Assembly: GCA_963813025.1 (NCBI GenBank)
Contig: CAWEXO010000008.1
Coordinates: forward strand, 1-64,000
Reading direction: 5' to 3'
Length of the DNA stretch: 64,000 nt
From: an uncultured Verrucomicrobiae bacterium
GTDB taxonomy: Bacteria > Verrucomicrobiota > Verrucomicrobiia > Chthoniobacterales > JAFAMB01
The position numbers and the translations under genes were made by a program. Below, in pieces: positions 28,003 through 39,144 of this stretch. The notes below the pieces were generated by a model. The model was not told where the DNA came from and did not search any database. It saw only the letters and a list, made by a program, of their open reading frames with translations. Position 1 is the first letter of the stretch, and every line of letters starts with the position of its first letter.

Positions 28003-28161
28003 GGTAGGGCGAGGATTCATCTGAGCCTTGGGCGAAGACTCGCTCGAGCCGCGGCTCGGGGTAAGCCGTGCTCCAGACGGCTCAAACAAGTTCTCGCCTG
28101 GCGCTCGAATAAATTTTCGCCCTACCGGCACTGGGCCGGGGCAACACTGCGAGACACGCTC
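28003..28161. repeat. GTAGGGCGA...TCGCCCTAC REP doublet with GCGAGACAC terminus
   Basis: Shares acggctcaaacaagttctcgc and gctcgaat with the 42822 copy, and tcgccctaccgg with the IS110 target. Confidence 0.8.
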
Positions 28162-31598: not shown

Positions 31599-31854
31599 AG
31601 ACAGTGTCTCGCAACTTGCTGTTCCGGTAGGGCGAAAATTTATTCGACGCGTCCGCCGAAGCTTTAGCGAAGGAGGAGCCTACGGACAAGCCTTCGTTGC
31701 GGCCCCGGATATTGAATGGCACAAACACTTGACTGGAGGGCGCGCCGTAGCCTTGCGGAGGTGGCCTGCTCGTCCGAATCGCGAGATGACTTGCCCCCAA
31801 ATGGTCAAGCAGAAGCTTGCCCCTACCGAGCTCGGGTGTTGCGAGACACCCTCT
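31599..31854 (-). mobile_element. Full-length non-autonomous REP/MITE with terminal inverted repeats (GTGTCTCGCAAC) and internal GTAG-type arms
   Basis: agacagtgtctcgcaac...gttgcgagacaccctct; its reverse complement is colinear with 36741-36967 plus 38211 onward. Confidence 0.8.
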
Positions 31855-34587: not shown

Positions 34588-36624
34588 ATGGCGACGGCAT
34601 TGTCGGGTTTCCCTCCGGCGATTACTCGTGCTGGGCTTCTGGAACGCTTGAGCGTTCCCCGGGAACTCGCTTGGGGTTATCTCGGACTTCTCCTGTTCAT
34701 GGTCGGCGACGGCATTGAAGCCGGGTACCTTGCCCCGTTCCTCTCCGCCAACGGACTTTCTCCCGAGAAGATCGCGTTCATGTTTACGCTGTACGGGATG
34801 ACGGCGGTTTTCGGGGCCCGCATGTCCGGAGCGCTGGCCGACTTCCTCGGGGCTCGTATTGTCATGTGGATTGGGCTTTTCATTTGGGCGGGATTGGAAA
34901 TTGTTTTTCTCGTCTTTGGATTAACTCTGGCTAACCGCGAAGTACTTATTGCCAGTTATGCGCTGCGGGGTTTCGGTTACCCGCTTTTCGCTTATGGCTT
35001 TCTCGTCTGCGTCGCGGCGGTTACTCCGCCTCGCCGGCTAGGCGCCGCGGTCGGCTGGTTCTGGTTCGCTTTTACCGGAGGTTTGCCCACCCTCGGTTCC
35101 TTGTCCGCCAGTTTCGCGGTCCCGTTGCTCGGGCAGTATGCCACTTTCTGGTGCTCCCTCGGCTTTGTTCTCTTGGGAGGGCTCATCATGCTCTACGGGA
35201 TTCCTCCATCGATCGGGGCACGCAAAGCGCGGACCAATCCTCAGCAGCACCGGAAAGCTCTTTTTGCCGGAATCACGATCGCCTGGGAAAAGCCGAAGAT
35301 CCTTATTGGTTGTATCGTTCGAATGATCAACACGGCTCCCCAATTTGGCTTCTTGATCTTTCTGCCGGCCTTTTTCATCGAGGTTGCGGGGTTCAGTCTC
35401 AGCCAATGGCTGCGGCTGTTGAGCTTCATGTTTTTTAGCAACATCATTTGTAACCTGATCCTCGGAATGGTGGGCGATCGGCTCGGTTGGCGGCAGACGG
35501 TCGCCTACGTCGGGGGAGTGGGATGCGCTGTTACTACTCTTCTCCTCTACTATGTGCCGCTTACCTTTCACGGTAACTATCTGCTCGCGGTCACCGCGGC
35601 CGTTCTCTACGGTGCCACCTTAGCTGGCTACGTGCCGCTTTCAGCCATCATGCCGTGCCTGGCGCCGGAAAATCAGGGAGCGGCCATATCGATGCTGAAT
35701 CTGGGCGCGGGCGCCAGCGCGTGGCTGGGACCGGCGATTGTCGGGCTTTTTCTCCGGCCCTATGGGGTCAAAGGTGTGATGTGGATCTTTGCCGCGCTCT
35801 ACGCAGTGAGCGCGGTCCTCACCTTGTTTCTCAAAGTACCCGGTGAAGGGAGCGAACATGGGCCCATTGGCGGGCTGAGTTTTGCTGCAGCGGGTTGTCT
35901 GCTGGGTCATCCTCCGCTGATGTCCGAGATCCCCGACGAACACGGTCTCGAGCTGATTCTCTTCGATCTGGGCGGAACAATCTATGACGACGAGACCTTT
36001 ACTCGAGCGCTTCTGCGGGCCGCGCACGAATTGAATCCGGCGATGGAGGAGAAGGATTTCTGGCAAGTGTACGACGAGCAGCGGGGTCGTTCATCCGGTT
36101 CGCTGCGTACGGCTATTGCGGAGCGATTGGTCCCGGATGCCGGTCGCGCCGCGCTGACGGCGCTCGCGAAAAAGTACTGGGAATACCCGCCCTCCGCCCT
36201 CTATCCCGATGTCAAACCCGCTCTGGTAAGCCTAGCTCCGCGATTCAAATTGGGCTTGGTGGCGAATGCCGGCGCGACTGCGGAGAAGGCGCTGCGCCGG
36301 GACGGCATTTATCATCTATTCAGTGTGGTCATGCTTTCTGAGGCCCTCGGAATCGAGAAACCAAATGAAGAGATTTTTCGGCGTGCGCTTGAGCGAGCCG
36401 GCGTCCCGGCCGAGCGAGCGGTTCATGTAGGCAACCGATTAGATAACGACATTCGACCGGCGCGCCGGGCCGGTTTAAAAACAATCTGGATGCTTCGTGG
36501 CGACGCTCCGCCCGCGCCTACCCTGGAACAGCTTGCTGAACCGGATGCGGTAATTATTTCCTTGAATGGGTTAGGAATTGCGTTGGGACGTGTGAGCGAA
36601 AAGACTGCTCGAGAGGACGGTTAA
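34588..36624 (+). CDS. RbtT/DalT/CsbX-type polyol MFS transporter fused to a HAD hydrolase
   Basis: LFMVGDGIE, RGFGYPLFAYGF, GWFWFAFTGGLPTLG, then ILFDLGGTI, EKPNEEIF, HVGNRLDNDI in one 678-aa frame. Confidence 0.85.
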   Translation: MATALSGFPPAITRAGLLERLSVPRELAWGYLGLLLFMVGDGIEAGYLAPFLSANGLSPEKIAFMFTLYGMTAVFGARMSGALADFLGARIVMWIGLFIWAGLEIVFLVFGLTLANREVLIASYALRGFGYPLFAYGFLVCVAAVTPPRRLGAAVGWFWFAFTGGLPTLGSLSASFAVPLLGQYATFWCSLGFVLLGGLIMLYGIPPSIGARKARTNPQQHRKALFAGITIAWEKPKILIGCIVRMINTAPQFGFLIFLPAFFIEVAGFSLSQWLRLLSFMFFSNIICNLILGMVGDRLGWRQTVAYVGGVGCAVTTLLLYYVPLTFHGNYLLAVTAAVLYGATLAGYVPLSAIMPCLAPENQGAAISMLNLGAGASAWLGPAIVGLFLRPYGVKGVMWIFAALYAVSAVLTLFLKVPGEGSEHGPIGGLSFAAAGCLLGHPPLMSEIPDEHGLELILFDLGGTIYDDETFTRALLRAAHELNPAMEEKDFWQVYDEQRGRSSGSLRTAIAERLVPDAGRAALTALAKKYWEYPPSALYPDVKPALVSLAPRFKLGLVANAGATAEKALRRDGIYHLFSVVMLSEALGIEKPNEEIFRRALERAGVPAERAVHVGNRLDNDIRPARRAGLKTIWMLRGDAPPAPTLEQLAEPDAVIISLNGLGIALGRVSEKTAREDG

Positions 36625-36740
36625 TCTTGGAGATGATTATTATGCCTGAATACCGCATCGAGGTCTGTGACGAGATACTCGCCGGGCACACCATCACGTT
36701 ATGCCGATGCGTCGAGTTATTTGCAGATAGTAACGCTTGC

Positions 36741-36967
36741 CTCGCAACACCCCAGGTCGGTAGGGGCAGGCTCAGGCAGGCTCAGGCAAGCTCCTGCTTG
36801 ACCTCCTTAGCGTTGGATTACGCTTCGATCTGGACGAGCAGGCCAAGACTACGGTGCGCCCTCCGGTCAAGCATTTGTGTATTCCATTTCCAAGCCAGGA
36901 CGGAGGCTTGCTATAGTCGGGAGCTCATCCCTCACTACGAAAGCGGCTCGAATGAAATTCTCGCCCT
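36741..36967 (+). repeat. REP/MITE copy interrupted by the IS110 insertion
   Basis: Colinear with the reverse complement of 31599-31854 up to tcgccCT; the expected accgg continuation is at 38211. Confidence 0.85.
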
Positions 36968-36974
36968 TGTACCT

Positions 36975-37210
36975 TGCCCCACCAATTTTTTTTTCCCTTT
37001 TAAAGCCGCCCGCAAGGGCGGAACTCTGGAAGTGAAGAACTTGGCCGAGGAGGGTGGAAAACTGCCTCGCCCAAAGGTCGGTAGAACCTGTCCGGTAGAT
37101 TAGTCCACCCTTCCTCGTGCCGCACCTGCATAAGACCGTACCGTATCTTAGGCCCTTCCAAACAGGGTTGGAACATAAGCCCGTGTTCACAAGGCTCTGT
37201 CAGCAGGCGC
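36975..37210 (+). ncRNA. Putative bridge RNA (target- and donor-binding loops); ends approximate
   Basis: Guides LTG 37065-73, RTG 37091-98, LDG 37140-48 and RDG 37189-93 match the target and donor. Stems 37046-58/37104-17 and 37156-61/37168-73; GNRA hairpin 37006-21. Confidence 0.85.
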
Positions 37211-37263
37211 GCGCCCAAGCGCTTCATCAAACAAAGAACCAATTCAACGCGAATTCCTGTCTG

Positions 37264-38193
37264 ATGAAAAAACGCTACTGCATGGGTATTGATATGGCAA
37301 AAGCAAGCTTTGACTTTTGCCTGCTCTCCAAGAATGGCACTCGCCTGTGGCGGGGAAAGTTCAGCAATGATGCGACCGGCATTGGAGCATTTTTAGCCCA
37401 ACTCCAGGCCCGCTCTTGGCCGCTCTCCCAGATCCACTTCGCCCTGGAAGCCACCGGGGTCTACGGGAAGAGATTGATCGCCGCTCTGCACCAAGCAGGC
37501 TTGGCGGTCAGCGTGCTCAATCCCGCCCAAGTCAAATACTTTGCTTTCTCGGTCCTGCGCCGCACCAAAAATGATCGGGTTGATGCGGCCATCATTGCCC
37601 AGTTTTGTCTGGAGCGAAAACCACTGGCCACTCGGCCGCTGCGCCCCCTTGAGGAAGAATTCAAACTGCTGCCCGAGCTTATCAGCCAACAGCGTGGCCA
37701 ACGACTCGCCCAGCTCAAGAAAGAAATCGCTCAGCTGGAGTCGGCCATCTTCGGCTTAGTCGCGGCTGATCAGGCTTTAAGCCGCCAAAGCCAACTGCTG
37801 TGCTCTATTCCCGGCATTGCCCAGCTCACAGCCGCCAAGCTGCTGGCCGAGCTGGCCGGTAAAGAGTTCCAATCGGCTCGGCAGTTGGCGGCCTATGCTG
37901 GGCTGACTCCTTCTGAATTCCGTTCCGGTGTCTCGCTCTACGGCAAAACCACCCTGTGCAAAATCGGCAACGCTTTCCTGCGCAAAGCACTCTATTTGCC
38001 GGCCGCCGTTGCTCGCCGCTGGTGCAAACCCATCCAGCAATGGGCCGCAGGTCTCGAGTCGCGCAAGCTCCACTCCCTGGCTATCCGCGGTGCCGTCATG
38101 CGAAAACTCCTGCACATCGCCTTCGGTGTTCTCTCTCACCAACAACCCTACAACCCTAACCTGGCCCGCCATTCCTTAAACCAATGCCCTTGA
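37264..38193 (+). CDS. IS110-family recombinase/transposase (309 aa)
   Basis: GIDMAK, LEATG, KNDRVDA (DEDD); SIPGI; AYAGLTPSEFRSG (catalytic Ser motif); GNAFLRKALY; AVMRKL. Confidence 0.93.
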   Translation: MKKRYCMGIDMAKASFDFCLLSKNGTRLWRGKFSNDATGIGAFLAQLQARSWPLSQIHFALEATGVYGKRLIAALHQAGLAVSVLNPAQVKYFAFSVLRRTKNDRVDAAIIAQFCLERKPLATRPLRPLEEEFKLLPELISQQRGQRLAQLKKEIAQLESAIFGLVAADQALSRQSQLLCSIPGIAQLTAAKLLAELAGKEFQSARQLAAYAGLTPSEFRSGVSLYGKTTLCKIGNAFLRKALYLPAAVARRWCKPIQQWAAGLESRKLHSLAIRGAVMRKLLHIAFGVLSHQQPYNPNLARHSLNQCP

Positions 38194-38339
38194 CATCCAA
38201 GACCGTATCTACCGGACCTCGTCCAAGTTCCAATCCACCGGACCTCATCCGAGTTCCAATCTTGTCCGGCCCTTGAACCGCCTGCGATGCAGCTTGTAGG
38301 GCTTCAGGACCTGCAGGATGCCGATGTCACTTGAAGTTC

Positions 38340-39144
38340 TCTTCGCACCATGAAATCGGCCAATGCCTCAGCATCGCGCCCGACACCGGAGAAACGTCCT
38401 GAACCCCAGGTATATTGCCAGGGCAATCCCAGGAAGAATCAGCCCGGGACCGGCGTTATGCCGCGATCGTGACCCGGGTAACCTTTCCATTGAAGACCGG
38501 TATCTCGATCCAGCCGTAATCGAGCTGAAACCCCAGGCACCAGATGACCGTGCGGATGTTCGCCGCGCGGTAGTCCAATTCCGCGATTTCTTTTTCCGGT
38601 CTCCAGACCGGGATGTACCGCGGTTCCACGGGAGCCTCGATCTGGTGTTTGGCAATGTAGTCGTCAATCGCATTCTTGATGTTCTCCGCCACGGCATCCG
38701 CTTGGTCGAGATTCGTTAGCAGGTCGTCGGCGAACCTCAGGAATTTACCTGAATCTCGCGCAGCTTTCCGTAGAGACGCATTCCTGGTTGTTAAGCTGAA
38801 CCGACCGAACTCAAACTGCTTTAATCCAGTGACATTCACGCCTTCTTTTACCGGGGCACTAAACCAGTCGGCATAGGACTCGATATATTGCACAATCTCT
38901 TTTTTTATCATGAAGCCATCCGGATCATTGGCCTGATAGGAAAACCCGGGCAGCTGACACTGCCACTTCGGGGTAACCAGACAAAACGAGTCCCAGCGTT
39001 TGGTCCGCCTTGCTTCGGCAATCCGCCGCCGTTCCAGGACGAGCTGACGAACTTCGCGGTTTTCAGGCAAAAACTCATTGCCAAACCCGCCTGACCACCA
39101 CCGATTACGATGACGGGATAATGACGATCGTCCAAAAAAGCCAT
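38340..39144 (-). pseudogene. MSMEG_0569-like flavin-dependent oxidoreductase, frameshifted and internally deleted
   Basis: VIGGGQAGLAMS / RWDSFCLVTPKWQCQLPG / jump after FSLTT / NIRTVIWCLGF..W. Confidence 0.8.

What the first reader, a model, noticed from the sequence alone, without database searches (positions are those of the whole stretch)
36966..38210. IS110 element with a readable bridge RNA whose four guides match its own donor and a REP target
Seen in sequence: the element runs from CT (36966-67) to CT (38209-10). Removing it restores tctcgccCTaccggac, the same REP arm found uninterrupted in the copy at 31599-31854. The ~296-nt left end has two loops. Target loop: stem 37046-58/37104-17 encloses CCTCGCCCA (37065-73; 7/9 to left target+core tctcgccct), a small hairpin (37075-89), and TCCGGTAG (37091-98; exact reverse complement of core+right target ctaccgga). 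Donor loop: ACCGTATCT (37140-48; 9/9 to the right end 38202-10), a ttccaa/ttggaa hairpin, and ACAAG (37189-93; reverse complement of core+left end cttgt). Established: this is the architecture of IS621-type bridge RNA-guided recombinases (DEDD plus catalytic Ser, CT core). Inference: an RNA-programmable recombinase ortholog aimed at this host's own REP family. The class is known, but this member and its target specificity may not be.
Basis: partly seen in the sequence, partly recalled or inferred. Interest (0 to 1): 0.92.

Follow-up and report, generated by a model that had tools for sequence, protein, structure and literature searches.

The report
IS110 jumping gene with bridge RNA
This is a copy of an IS110-type jumping gene whose own guide ("bridge") RNA matches both the element's ends and the repeated host sequence it inserts into, a known kind of system, and this copy has lost part of its enzyme gene.

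Summary
Window 36968-38210 is an IS110-group element (PF01548 + PF02371; IS621 in PDB at E 4.6e-46) between two CT dinucleotides. Its 296-nt left end has the IS621-type bridge RNA layout: 5' stem-loop, target loop, donor loop.

The guide assignments are right and can be extended. RTG plus a handshake dinucleotide matches the right junction 10/10. LDG matches 9/9. RDG is the discontiguous 9-nt type, covering 7 donor bases. LTG 7/9 is not above chance on its own.

Related sequences support all four guides. The genome has 12 further copies, 11 of them complete at both ends and in the same site, and 95 empty copies of TCGCCCTACCGG. In relatives from other genomes and metagenomes, guides change together with flanks and ends (permutations 0/10,000), and stems show compensatory changes.

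New point: the window copy carries an in-frame 81-bp deletion. It removes 27 residues of the coiled-coil dimerisation domain, including an invariant Arg. This copy is therefore probably non-autonomous. Seven copies elsewhere encode the intact 336-aa protein.

No RNA data were available, so transcription is not shown.

Verdict: a real, well-supported new member of a known kind. REP-targeting IS110 elements with bridge RNAs are already described (IS621, ISPpu9/10). This scan has already noted other IS110 elements in this genome.

The parts
36959..36967 (+). Left target (7 nt TCTCGCC) plus core CT, the left half of the interrupted repeat
   Evidence: the same 9-mer context at 12 further copies; empty sites
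36968..38210 (+). IS110-group insertion sequence, 1243 bp, a deletion derivative of a 1322-1323-bp element
36968..37263 (+). Non-coding left end (296 nt) that encodes the bridge RNA
36970..36975 (+). TACCTT, a -10-like hexamer that lies 17 nt from the right-end TTGACA only in the circular RE-LE junction (inferred junction promoter)
   Evidence: sequence; the principle is from PMC11208158 and PMC11208160; not found by the linear scan
36973..36976 (+). CTTG, a sub-terminal inverted repeat partner of CAAG at 38198-38201, flanking the 14-bp donor
   Evidence: sequence; short STIRs of the IS110 group are described in PMC11208160
37006..37021 (+). 5' stem-loop (CCGCCC/GGGCGG), invariant in 12 of 12 relatives aligned
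37042..37122 (+). Target-binding loop; outer stem 37042-58 with 37104-22
   Evidence: helix 1: 6 of 17 pairs with compensatory changes
37065..37073 (+). Left target guide CCTCGCCCA (7/9; positions 2-8 match, first base and last core base do not)
37075..37089 (+). Inner hairpin of the target loop
   Evidence: helix 2, 99% paired; no compensatory changes, so conserved but uninformative
37091..37098 (+). Right target guide TCCGGTAG (core + 6 nt, a naturally long RTG)
37099..37100 (+). Handshake dinucleotide AT, complementary to donor positions 6-7 (38207-08) and not to target positions 6-7
   Evidence: 10/10 with RTG; the rule is from PMC11208158
37125..37207 (+). Donor-binding loop; outer stem 37125-29 with 37203-07
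   Evidence: helix 3: 3 of 7 pairs with compensatory changes
37140..37148 (+). Left donor guide ACCGTATCT (9/9 to the right end)
37156..37173 (+). Inner hairpin of the donor loop (ttccaa/ttggaa)
   Evidence: helix 5: 4 of 6 pairs with compensatory changes
37185..37193 (+). Right donor guide GT-(TC)-ACAAG: 9 nt pairing discontiguously with the 7 donor bases CTTGTAC
   Evidence: the pattern is described for IS621 in PMC11208160
37194..37194 (+). Handshake base G, complementary to target position 7 (C at 36965)
   Evidence: the rule is; it does not covary in the one clade whose target has G at position 7
37264..38193 (+). Recombinase ORF, 309 aa + stop; D10, E62, D104, D107 (37291-, 37447-, 37573-, 37582-) and Ser221 (37924-26) present; coiled-coil helix 1 missing
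37667..37668 (+). Junction of the 81-bp in-frame deletion (aa 137-163 of the 336-aa protein), with GCTG microhomology
38190..38195 (+). TTGACA, a -35-like hexamer 15 nt from the right end
   Evidence: TTGAC is conserved in the 17 relatives' right ends listed
38198..38201 (+). CAAG, the sub-terminal inverted repeat partner of CTTG
38202..38210 (+). Left donor (ACCGTAT) plus core CT, the right end of the element
38211..38216 (+). Right target ACCGGA
31624..31635 (-). Unoccupied copy of the target TCGCCCTACCGG; three more in the window start at 28117 (+), 42868 (-) and 59600 (+)

Best explanation
Window 36968-38210 is one copy of an IS110-group (IS621-like) insertion sequence from a soil Verrucomicrobiae-type genome. 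The family moves by RNA-guided serine/DEDD recombination. The element excises as a circle, which abuts TTGACA in the right end and TACCTT in the left end into a sigma-70-like promoter. This promoter drives a roughly 200-nt bridge RNA from the left end.

The target loop of that RNA reads T(C/T)TCGCC-CT-ACCGG(A) through LTG 37065-73 and RTG 37091-98. The donor loop reads the element's own joined ends, ACCGTAT-CT-TGTAC, through LDG 37140-48 and RDG 37185-93. Recombination at the shared CT places the element at one fixed base of a dispersed REP-like repeat.

Shown here: homology, catalytic residues, element ends, site specificity over 12 copies complete at both ends, RNA fold covariation, and guide/target and guide/donor covariation.

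Inferred: transcription, the junction promoter, and the chemistry, all by analogy with IS621.

The window copy itself has lost 27 residues of the coiled-coil dimerisation domain. It is most likely a non-autonomous copy with an intact bridge RNA and intact ends, movable only with recombinase from one of the 7 intact sister copies.
For: Protein:
- PF01548 at 1.2e-28 and PF02371 at 5.5e-22.
- IS621 (8wt6) at E 4.6e-46 and ISCro4 (9t56) at 2.2e-44. D10/E62/D104/D107/S248 align to IS621 D11/E60/D102/D105/S241.
- G8, D10, E62, D104, S248 and G249 are invariant in 52 relatives.

Copies and site:
- 13 copies in the genome. All 13 have the left junction, and 12 have both junctions at ...TCGC(C/T)-CT|TGTACC...ACCGTATCT|ACCGG.
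- 95 empty TCGCCCTACCGG sites against about 0.5 expected by my arithmetic.

RNA fold:
- Outer stems are predicted in the single sequence and in the alignment.
- On 33 distinct sequences, 93.5% of cells are paired against 41-52% with partners slid. 13 pairs show compensatory changes against 7.1+/-1.6 in shuffles (0/500).
- A covariance model built from these sequences finds the same RNA upstream of the ORF in 39 of 45 distant loci.

Guides:
- LDG 9/9 and RTG+HSG 10/10 were reached by 0 of 5,000 shuffles each.
- RTG, 12 distinct: cognate mean 4.67 of 6; non-cognate mean over the 23 unique pairs 2.69; 0/10,000 permutations.
- LTG loops, 13 distinct: cognate mean 6.69 of 8; non-cognate mean over the 18 unique pairs 5.35; 0/10,000.
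- Distant set, 20 distinct pairs: 6.4 of 7 cognate against 4.42 non-cognate; 0/10,000.
- Six left-donor variants (ACCGTATCT, ACCCTATCT, ACGGTATCT, ACGATATCT, ATGGTATCT, ACAGTATCT) are each mirrored by their LDG.
- The RDG first dinucleotide GT/AT/AC matches left-end positions 13-14 AC/AT/GT in 21 of 22 distant loci with a mapped junction. I read this off; one of the 21 (L103) had two candidate junctions, and I took the one whose flank fits the LTG. It also holds in the close clades.

Deletion:
- 81 bp are absent only in the window copy, out of 8 long copies.
- All 6 orthologues aligned keep the segment.
- It removes invariant R153 and near-invariant V137, E150 and N152.
- It removes 19 of the 28 residues of helix 128-155 plus the turn, in a model with pLDDT 86.8.
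- In IS621 the coiled coil mediates dimerisation (PMC11208158, passages).
Against: - No RNA run holds the sequence, so no transcript was seen.
- The inferred -10 (TACCTT) matches only 3 of 6 consensus positions, and the linear promoter scan finds nothing.
- LTG 7/9 and the ACAAG(G) match are at chance level within the window alone.
- The single-sequence MFE fold pairs part of LTG with part of RTG. The alignment fold keeps only two such pairs.
- Misses among relatives: L055 RT 2/6; L065 and L067 3/6; the L027 clade 3-4/6; L071 LT 5/8; L073/L074 right junction reads CG, not CT; L035 has an aberrant left end.
- The second handshake base does not match (C at 37195 against target C at position 6). 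The first handshake base does not covary in the clade whose target has G at position 7.
- That the deletion inactivates the enzyme is inferred, not tested.
Confidence: 0.92

Rival explanations
1. The window copy is still autonomous. The shortened linker, with helix 2 only, is tolerated, and the 309-aa protein is an active recombinase.
For: The ORF stays open and in frame. All five catalytic residues and both Pfam domains are retained. The bridge RNA guides are identical to those of the intact copies.
Against: The deletion is seen in 1 of 8 long copies and in none of 6 orthologues aligned. It removes an invariant Arg and three near-invariant residues and most of one of the two coiled-coil helices. 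That domain mediates dimerisation in IS621. No second copy in the genome carries this deletion, so the form has left no offspring there.
Confidence: 0.15
2. Target choice is not by RNA alone. A DNA hairpin or the repeat context 5' of the target adds a second, structural recognition layer, as reported for ISPpu10.
For: About 40 nt upstream of the 12-mer are conserved across the 95 empty sites. A candidate imperfect hairpin there pairs in 69% of cells against 34-49% when slid. The ISPpu10 preprint reports a target stem-loop requirement (abstract read).
Against: Several occupied sites carry only one repeat unit and lack the two-arm arrangement. The upstream region reads as well as a tandem direct repeat of a roughly 20-nt unit. 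Guide/target covariation already explains the site.
Confidence: 0.25
3. The structured left end is only a leader or regulator of recombinase expression, and site choice is made by the protein.
For: The left end lies directly upstream of the ORF on the same strand. No transcript data exist.
Against: Guides change together with flanks and ends in many clades while stems are kept. Derivatives that have lost most of the ORF keep the left end intact. The homologous system has been solved and tested.
Confidence: 0.02

Closest known systems
IS621 (E. coli) and its bridge RNA (Durrant et al. 2024, PMC11208160; Hiraizumi et al. 2024, PMC11208158; passages read)
   Same: - DEDD RuvC domain, two-helix coiled coil and Tnp domain with catalytic Ser.
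- CT core.
- Long left end encoding a 5' stem-loop, a target loop and a donor loop.
- 9-nt LTG and LDG that include the core.
- Discontiguous 9-nt RDG over 7 donor bases.
- Handshake base after RTG and after RDG.
- -35 in the right end and -10 in the left end.
- Insertion into a repeated extragenic sequence.
   Different: - About 35% protein identity (111 of 321 aligned, counted by hand).
- The RTG is naturally long (core + 5-6 nt), whereas IS621's is 4 nt.
- The last LTG base is A opposite core T throughout this clade.
- Different target (TCTCGCC-CT-ACCGGA) and donor.
- Different host phylum.
- The window copy lacks half of the coiled coil.
ISCro4 recombinase (PDB 9t56; name as given only)
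   Same: Homologue at E 2.2e-44 over residues 5-325.
   Different: Nothing beyond the sequence match was examined.
ISPpu9 / ISPpu10 of Pseudomonas putida (PMC12288879, passages read; bioRxiv 10.64898/2026.03.19.712850, abstract read)
   Same: IS110-group elements inserted at one fixed position of REP sequences, in multiple copies per genome. MITE-like derivatives and mobilisation in trans are discussed for them.
   Different: Different REP family and, for ISPpu9, a different terminal dinucleotide (AG). There is no Ssr9-like downstream RNA here. A role for a target stem-loop was not established here.
IS1111 group / seekRNA elements (as described in PMC11208160)
   Same: Same recombinase family and RNA-guided logic.
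   Different: In those elements the RNA lies in a long right end and the sub-terminal inverted repeats are 7-17 bp. Here the left end is 296 nt, the right end is 17 nt, and the sub-terminal repeat is 4 bp.

Membership tests
IS110 family, IS110 group (IS621-type bridge recombinase element) | N-terminal DEDD RuvC-like domain with all four acidic residues | tested here: met
   PF01548 at 1.2e-28. D10, E62, D104 and D107 align to IS621 D11, E60, D102 and D105. D10, E62 and D104 are invariant and D107 near-invariant in 52 sequences.
IS110 family, IS110 group (IS621-type bridge recombinase element) | C-terminal Tnp domain with the catalytic serine | tested here: met
   PF02371 at 5.5e-22. S248 (S221 in the window copy, 37924-26) aligns to IS621 S241 and is followed by the conserved Gly.
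IS110 family, IS110 group (IS621-type bridge recombinase element) | Two-helix coiled-coil domain between RuvC and Tnp (dimerisation) | tested here: not met
   Not met by the window copy: aa 137-163 are deleted, leaving about 9 residues of helix 1. Met by the 7 full-length sister copies (helices 128-155 and 165-195). The family assignment rests on those copies. The window copy is a damaged member.
IS110 family, IS110 group (IS621-type bridge recombinase element) | No terminal inverted repeats; a 2-nt core shared by target and joined ends; no further target duplication | tested here: met
   Occupied sites read ...CT|element...CT|..., and empty sites have one CT. The bases next to CT differ between donor and target, so the core is exactly 2 nt.
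IS110 family, IS110 group (IS621-type bridge recombinase element) | Long non-coding left end, short right end, short sub-terminal inverted repeat | tested here: met
   The left end is 296 nt and the right end is 17 nt after the stop. CAAG/CTTG flank the 14-bp donor. The criterion is from PMC11208160.
IS110 family, IS110 group (IS621-type bridge recombinase element) | Left-end RNA with a 5' stem-loop and two stem-enclosed internal loops | tested here: met
   (13 of 37 pairs with compensatory changes; 0/500 shuffles); 39 of 45 distant loci are hit by the model. No Rfam 15 family matched.
IS110 family, IS110 group (IS621-type bridge recombinase element) | Loop guides complementary to target and donor, covarying with them | tested here: met
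   The misses are listed in the Against line.
IS110 family, IS110 group (IS621-type bridge recombinase element) | Handshake guides that pair with the non-cognate DNA | tested here: inconclusive
   AT after the RTG fits donor positions 7-6, and G after the RDG fits target position 7. The second DBL base does not fit, and the first does not covary in the clade with G at target position 7.
IS110 family, IS110 group (IS621-type bridge recombinase element) | Promoter rebuilt at the RE-LE junction; bridge RNA transcribed | not testable with these tools
   TTGACA, 17 nt, TACCTT would form in the circle. No RNA run was listed.
IS110 family, IS110 group (IS621-type bridge recombinase element) | RNA-dependent recombination activity | not testable with these tools
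   Only indirect evidence: 7 near-identical intact copies, each at its own site.
REP (repetitive extragenic palindromic) target | Abundant short repeat, imperfect palindrome, often in inverted pairs | tested here: inconclusive
   Abundance is met (95 exact 12-mers). Inverted pairs are met: 20 of 21 neighbour pairs under 400 bp are convergent, 12 of them 104-109 bp apart. The palindrome within the unit is weak. Three weak Y1_Tnp matches exist in the genome and were not followed up. I call it REP-like.

The most novel reading that the evidence does not exclude
This genome shows natural recombinase-less riders of a bridge-RNA system. Copies that keep the bridge RNA and both donor halves but have lost enzyme function have been moved in trans.

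Two 1010/1011-bp copies (C15:123618-124627 and C9:218161-219171) are 99.4% identical. They share one 305-bp internal deletion that removes D104, D107 and the coiled coil, yet they sit at two different target sites with unrelated flanks.

The window copy, with only the dimerisation helix lost and all catalytic residues kept, may be an early stage of the same decay. It could even act as a poison subunit that damps transposition.
Probability: 0.4. Interest if true: 0.4.

Novelty: new member of a known kind. Interest (0 to 1): 0.3.

Why it matters
The finding adds a well-documented natural orthologue, from a soil Verrucomicrobiae-type genome, to the bridge recombinases.

- It has a naturally extended right target guide.
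- It has a fully mapped 14-bp donor and a 15-16-bp target.
- At least a dozen sister clades have guides and sites that differ, giving a ready natural data set for guide rules.
- One genome holds intact, partly damaged and strongly deleted copies side by side. This bears on how such elements decay and whether they are mobilised in trans.

None of this changes the known mechanism.

Tried and rejected
- Rfam 15 scan of 36500-38700 at E up to 10: only three chance miRNA-like matches and no bridge RNA family.
- Linear promoter/terminator scan of 36700-38400: nothing found. The inferred promoter exists only across the circle junction.
- Sequencing runs: no RNA holder was listed. The best DNA holder (share 0.66) is a soil metagenome and may be the source sample. 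Read laying was not used, because contigs of DNA runs cannot show a transcript.
- Empty orthologous site: the left-flank gene is found in a same-genus genome (83% over 1,650 nt), but similarity ends at the gene's end, so no empty orthologous site could be read.
- L035: single copy in its genome with an aberrant left junction. It was not usable for LTG, but its relative L083 shows the expected junction.
- Upstream target hairpin: support is only moderate, and a tandem-repeat reading fits as well.
- Earlier scan notes: none overlaps this place and none resembles this RNA by sequence. The genome-wide notes concern IS110 elements on other pieces. The genome has 40 DEDD matches in several families.
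- Literature, 'IS110' + 'Verrucomicrobi': 15 papers, none with both terms in title or abstract (listing only).
- Literature, 'IS110' + 'bridge RNA' + 'non-autonomous': 2 papers. One of them, PMC12288879, discusses MITE-like derivatives (passages read).
- The supplementary orthologue tables of Durrant et al. were not opened, so I cannot say whether this orthologue is already in their catalogue.
Full report
**What is there**

Window 36968-38210 is a 1243-bp element. It is preceded by CT (36966-67) and ends in CT (38209-10). It holds one long ORF. From the ATG at 37264 this gives 309 aa with Pfam DEDD_Tnp_IS110 (1.2e-28) and Transposase_20 (5.5e-22). The full-length form of the protein, taken from a sister copy, matches the solved IS621 recombinase at E 4.6e-46 and ISCro4 at 2.2e-44 over residues 5-325. 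In that alignment D10, E62, D104, D107 and S248 stand opposite IS621 D11, E60, D102, D105 and S241. The IS621 numbering comes from PMC11208158; the PDB chain is offset by 2.

**Copies and target**

The genome holding the window (4.42 Mb, 16 contigs, 80% complete) has 13 copies or derivatives:
- 7 copies of 1322-1323 bp;
- the window copy;
- two of about 1010 bp;
- one each of 630 bp, 509 bp and 2057 bp.

All 13 have the left junction ...TCGC(C/T)-CT|TGTACC. Twelve also have the right junction ACCGTATCT|ACCGG; the 509-bp piece lacks a right end. The 12-mer formed by removing the element, TCGCCCTACCGG, occurs uninterrupted 95 times in the genome, against about 0.5 expected by my arithmetic. About 40 nt upstream and 10 nt downstream of the 12-mer are conserved. 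Of 21 neighbouring site pairs closer than 400 bp, 20 are convergent, and 12 of these are 104-109 bp apart. I call the target a REP-like dispersed repeat. A palindrome within the unit is only weakly supported.

**The bridge RNA**

Against 5,000 dinucleotide-preserving shuffles of the left end:

| Guide match | Shuffles reaching it |
|---|---|
| LDG 9/9 | 0 |
| RTG + next two bases, 10/10 (TCCGGTAGAT against 38207-38216) | 0 |
| LTG 7/9 | 2,306 |
| 6-nt RDG match | 1,042 |

The last two are unremarkable on their own.

Reading the IS621 papers allows two extensions:
- The AT after the RTG is the handshake dinucleotide. It pairs with donor positions 7-6 and not with the cognate target. The G after the RDG pairs with target position 7.
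- The RDG is GT-(TC)-ACAAG at 37185-93. These 9 nt cover the 7 donor bases CTTGTAC with a 2-nt bulge, which is the pattern described for IS621. The two bulged bases are the ones that vary among paralogues.

A 4-bp sub-terminal inverted repeat (CAAG 38198-201 / CTTG 36973-76) flanks the 14-bp donor. In a circle, TTGACA (38190-95) would lie 17 nt from TACCTT (36970-75). This is the junction-promoter arrangement reported for IS621, but the -10 is weak and this remains inference.

**Fold**

The single sequence folds with both outer stems (z about -3), but it also pairs part of LTG with RTG. On 12 relatives the consensus fold keeps the 5' stem-loop, both outer stems and the inner hairpins, and leaves the guides essentially open. 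On 33 distinct sequences with a structure I wrote from that fold:
- 93.5% of cells pair, against 41-52% when partners are slid;
- 13 of 37 pairs show compensatory changes, against 7.1+/-1.6 in shuffles (0 of 500).

A covariance model built from this alignment finds the same RNA just upstream of the ORF in 39 of 45 loci whose proteins are only 32-42% identical. Six loci gave no hit.

**Guide covariation**

I collected 22 loci from genome contigs (Verrucomicrobiae and Chthoniobacterales MAGs at 46-77% protein identity, Rhodanobacter at 35-37%) and 80 metagenome loci.

*Close set.* RTG and right flank change together:
- TACGGTAG with ACCGT;
- TCCCGGAG with CCGGG;
- TCACAAAG with TTGTG;
- GCTTGTAG with ACAAG;
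- TCAGGTAG with ACCTGA;
- TTTGGTAG with ACCAA.

Over 23 unique pairs the cognate mean is 4.48 of 6, against 2.69 for 472 non-cognate pairs. With one representative per distinct RTG (12), the mean is 4.67, and 0 of 10,000 permutations reach it.

Rows dropped before this count:
- loci cut by a contig end;
- four loci whose right end did not read CT: L066, L073, L074 and L080. L066 would have matched 5/6, and L073/L074 3/6.

L047, whose target loop is deleted, was left in as a miss (1/6).

LTG loops: 18 unique pairs give 6.61 of 8 against 5.35. With 13 distinct loops the mean is 6.69, and 0 of 10,000 permutations reach it.

*Distant set.* I placed the left junction only from the 5 bases core + 3 predicted by the RDG. 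This gave a junction in 22 of the 36 loci tabulated. The independent 7-nt left flank then matches the loop at 6.4 of 7 for 20 distinct pairs, against 4.42 non-cognate, with 0 of 10,000 permutations reaching it.

*Donor side.* Results for the 36 distant loci tabulated:

| LDG best match near the ORF end | Loci |
|---|---|
| 9/9 | 16 |
| 8/9 (always differing at the last core base) | 13 |
| 7/9 | 3 |
| 6/9 | 3 |
| no downstream sequence | 1 |

Six different left-donor sequences are each mirrored by their LDG. The first RDG dinucleotide GT/AT/AC goes with left-end positions 13-14 AC/AT/GT in 21 of 22 mapped distant loci. I read this off; L103 had two candidate junctions, and I took the one whose flank fits the LTG.

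*Misses.*
- L055 RT 2/6; L065 and L067 3/6; the L027 clade 3-4/6.
- L071 LT 5/8, with a perfect RT. This could be a half-matched insertion of the kind described for IS621 (abstract only).
- The L073/L074 right junction reads CG.
- L035 has an aberrant left end.
- In the distant set the RTG matches mostly only 2-4 of 6. The long RTG is therefore a feature of the window's clade. Longer RTGs in some orthologues are already noted in PMC11208160.

**The window copy is damaged**

Aligned with its 7 long sisters, the window copy lacks 81 bp (alignment columns 701-781; junction at 37667|37668 with GCTG microhomology) and has one extra T in a T-run. The sisters all encode an open 336-aa protein. The window protein lacks residues 137-163.
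- All 6 orthologues aligned keep this segment.
- In 52 relatives it contains invariant R153 and near-invariant V137, E150 and N152.
- In an AlphaFold model (pLDDT 86.8, pTM 0.82) the coiled coil is helices 128-155 and 165-195. The deletion therefore removes 19 of the 28 residues of helix 1 and the turn.
- In IS621 this domain (residues 123-188) mediates dimerisation of the protomers.

I infer, at about 75-80%, that the window copy cannot make active enzyme. Its bridge RNA guides and both ends are identical to those of the intact copies, so it could still be a substrate in trans.

**Other derivatives**

- C15:123618-124627 and C9:218161-219171 are 99.4% identical to each other and 82-90% identical to the main family. 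They share one 305-bp deletion that removes D104, D107 and the coiled coil, and they lie at different sites with unrelated flanks. This suggests movement after the deletion.
- MITE-like derivatives and supply of transposase in trans are already discussed for ISPpu9 (PMC12288879, passages read) and for ISPpu10 (section headings and abstract).
- In the 2057-bp copy on C9, the interior of the element is replaced by an IS3-like element.

**What is not shown**

- Transcription: no RNA run was listed.
- The junction promoter.
- Activity.
- No empty orthologous site could be found in the one same-genus genome, because synteny ends at the neighbouring gene.

**Comparison and novelty**

This element works like IS621 and is a member of the IS110 group. 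All defining features that can be read from sequence are met by the family. The window copy fails the coiled-coil feature.

IS110 elements that insert at one base of REP sequences are in print (IS621: Choi 2003, cited; ISPpu9/ISPpu10). Bridge RNAs were predicted for 85.7% of ISfinder IS110s. I found no paper on such an element in Verrucomicrobia (listing only). I did not open the supplementary orthologue tables of PMC11208160. Earlier notes of this scan already describe other IS110 elements on other pieces of this genome. None resembles this RNA by sequence, and the genome has 40 DEDD matches in several families.

Verdict: real and well supported, a new member of a known kind, of moderate to low interest.

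Noticed in passing
G000 C9:67089-69145 (- strand; loci L018/L020): A copy of the same IS in which element positions 297-1011 are replaced by about 1.45 kb. The insert carries an IS3-like pair of ORFs: a 123-aa HTH-type ORF and a 370-aa ORF with an rve-like DDE core, judged by eye from the translation. Only the bridge RNA end and the last 312 bp of the IS110 element remain.
   Followed up: partly
G000 C15:123618-124627 and C9:218161-219171: Two 99.4% identical 1010/1011-bp derivatives of a diverged sister lineage (82-90% identical to the main family). They share the same 305-bp internal deletion but lie at two different target sites. No intact parent of this lineage was seen in the 80%-complete assembly.
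   Followed up: partly
window 36737-36932: The stretch just left of the insertion belongs to another dispersed repeat, with at least 10 further copies in the genome at 72-83% identity.
   Followed up: no
window 38211-38262: Directly right of the element lies a tandem duplication of a roughly 26-nt unit starting with ACCGGACCTC (accggacctcgtccaagttccaatcc / accggacctcatccgagttccaatct). This differs from the usual right flank of the repeat family.
   Followed up: no
whole genome G000: There are 40 matches to the IS110 DEDD domain, falling into several score classes (for example about 10 copies at 76.7 bits and about 10 at 74.8 bits). The genome therefore carries several distinct IS110 families besides this one.
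   Followed up: no
G000 C11:985769-985993, C5:185410-185640, C14:330817-331038: Three weak partial matches to Y1_Tnp (PF01797, 29-37 bits). They could be RAYT- or IS200-like genes relevant to the origin of the repeat family.
   Followed up: no
L041:1184-1215: In a relative genome, the first 11 nt of the left end (TGTATCTTCCT) are repeated three times in tandem at the left junction of one copy.
   Followed up: no
L071 (metagenome contig): A relative with the same LTG and RTG as the window element sits at a site whose right half matches 6/6 but whose left half matches only 5/8. It may be a natural half-matched insertion.
   Followed up: no
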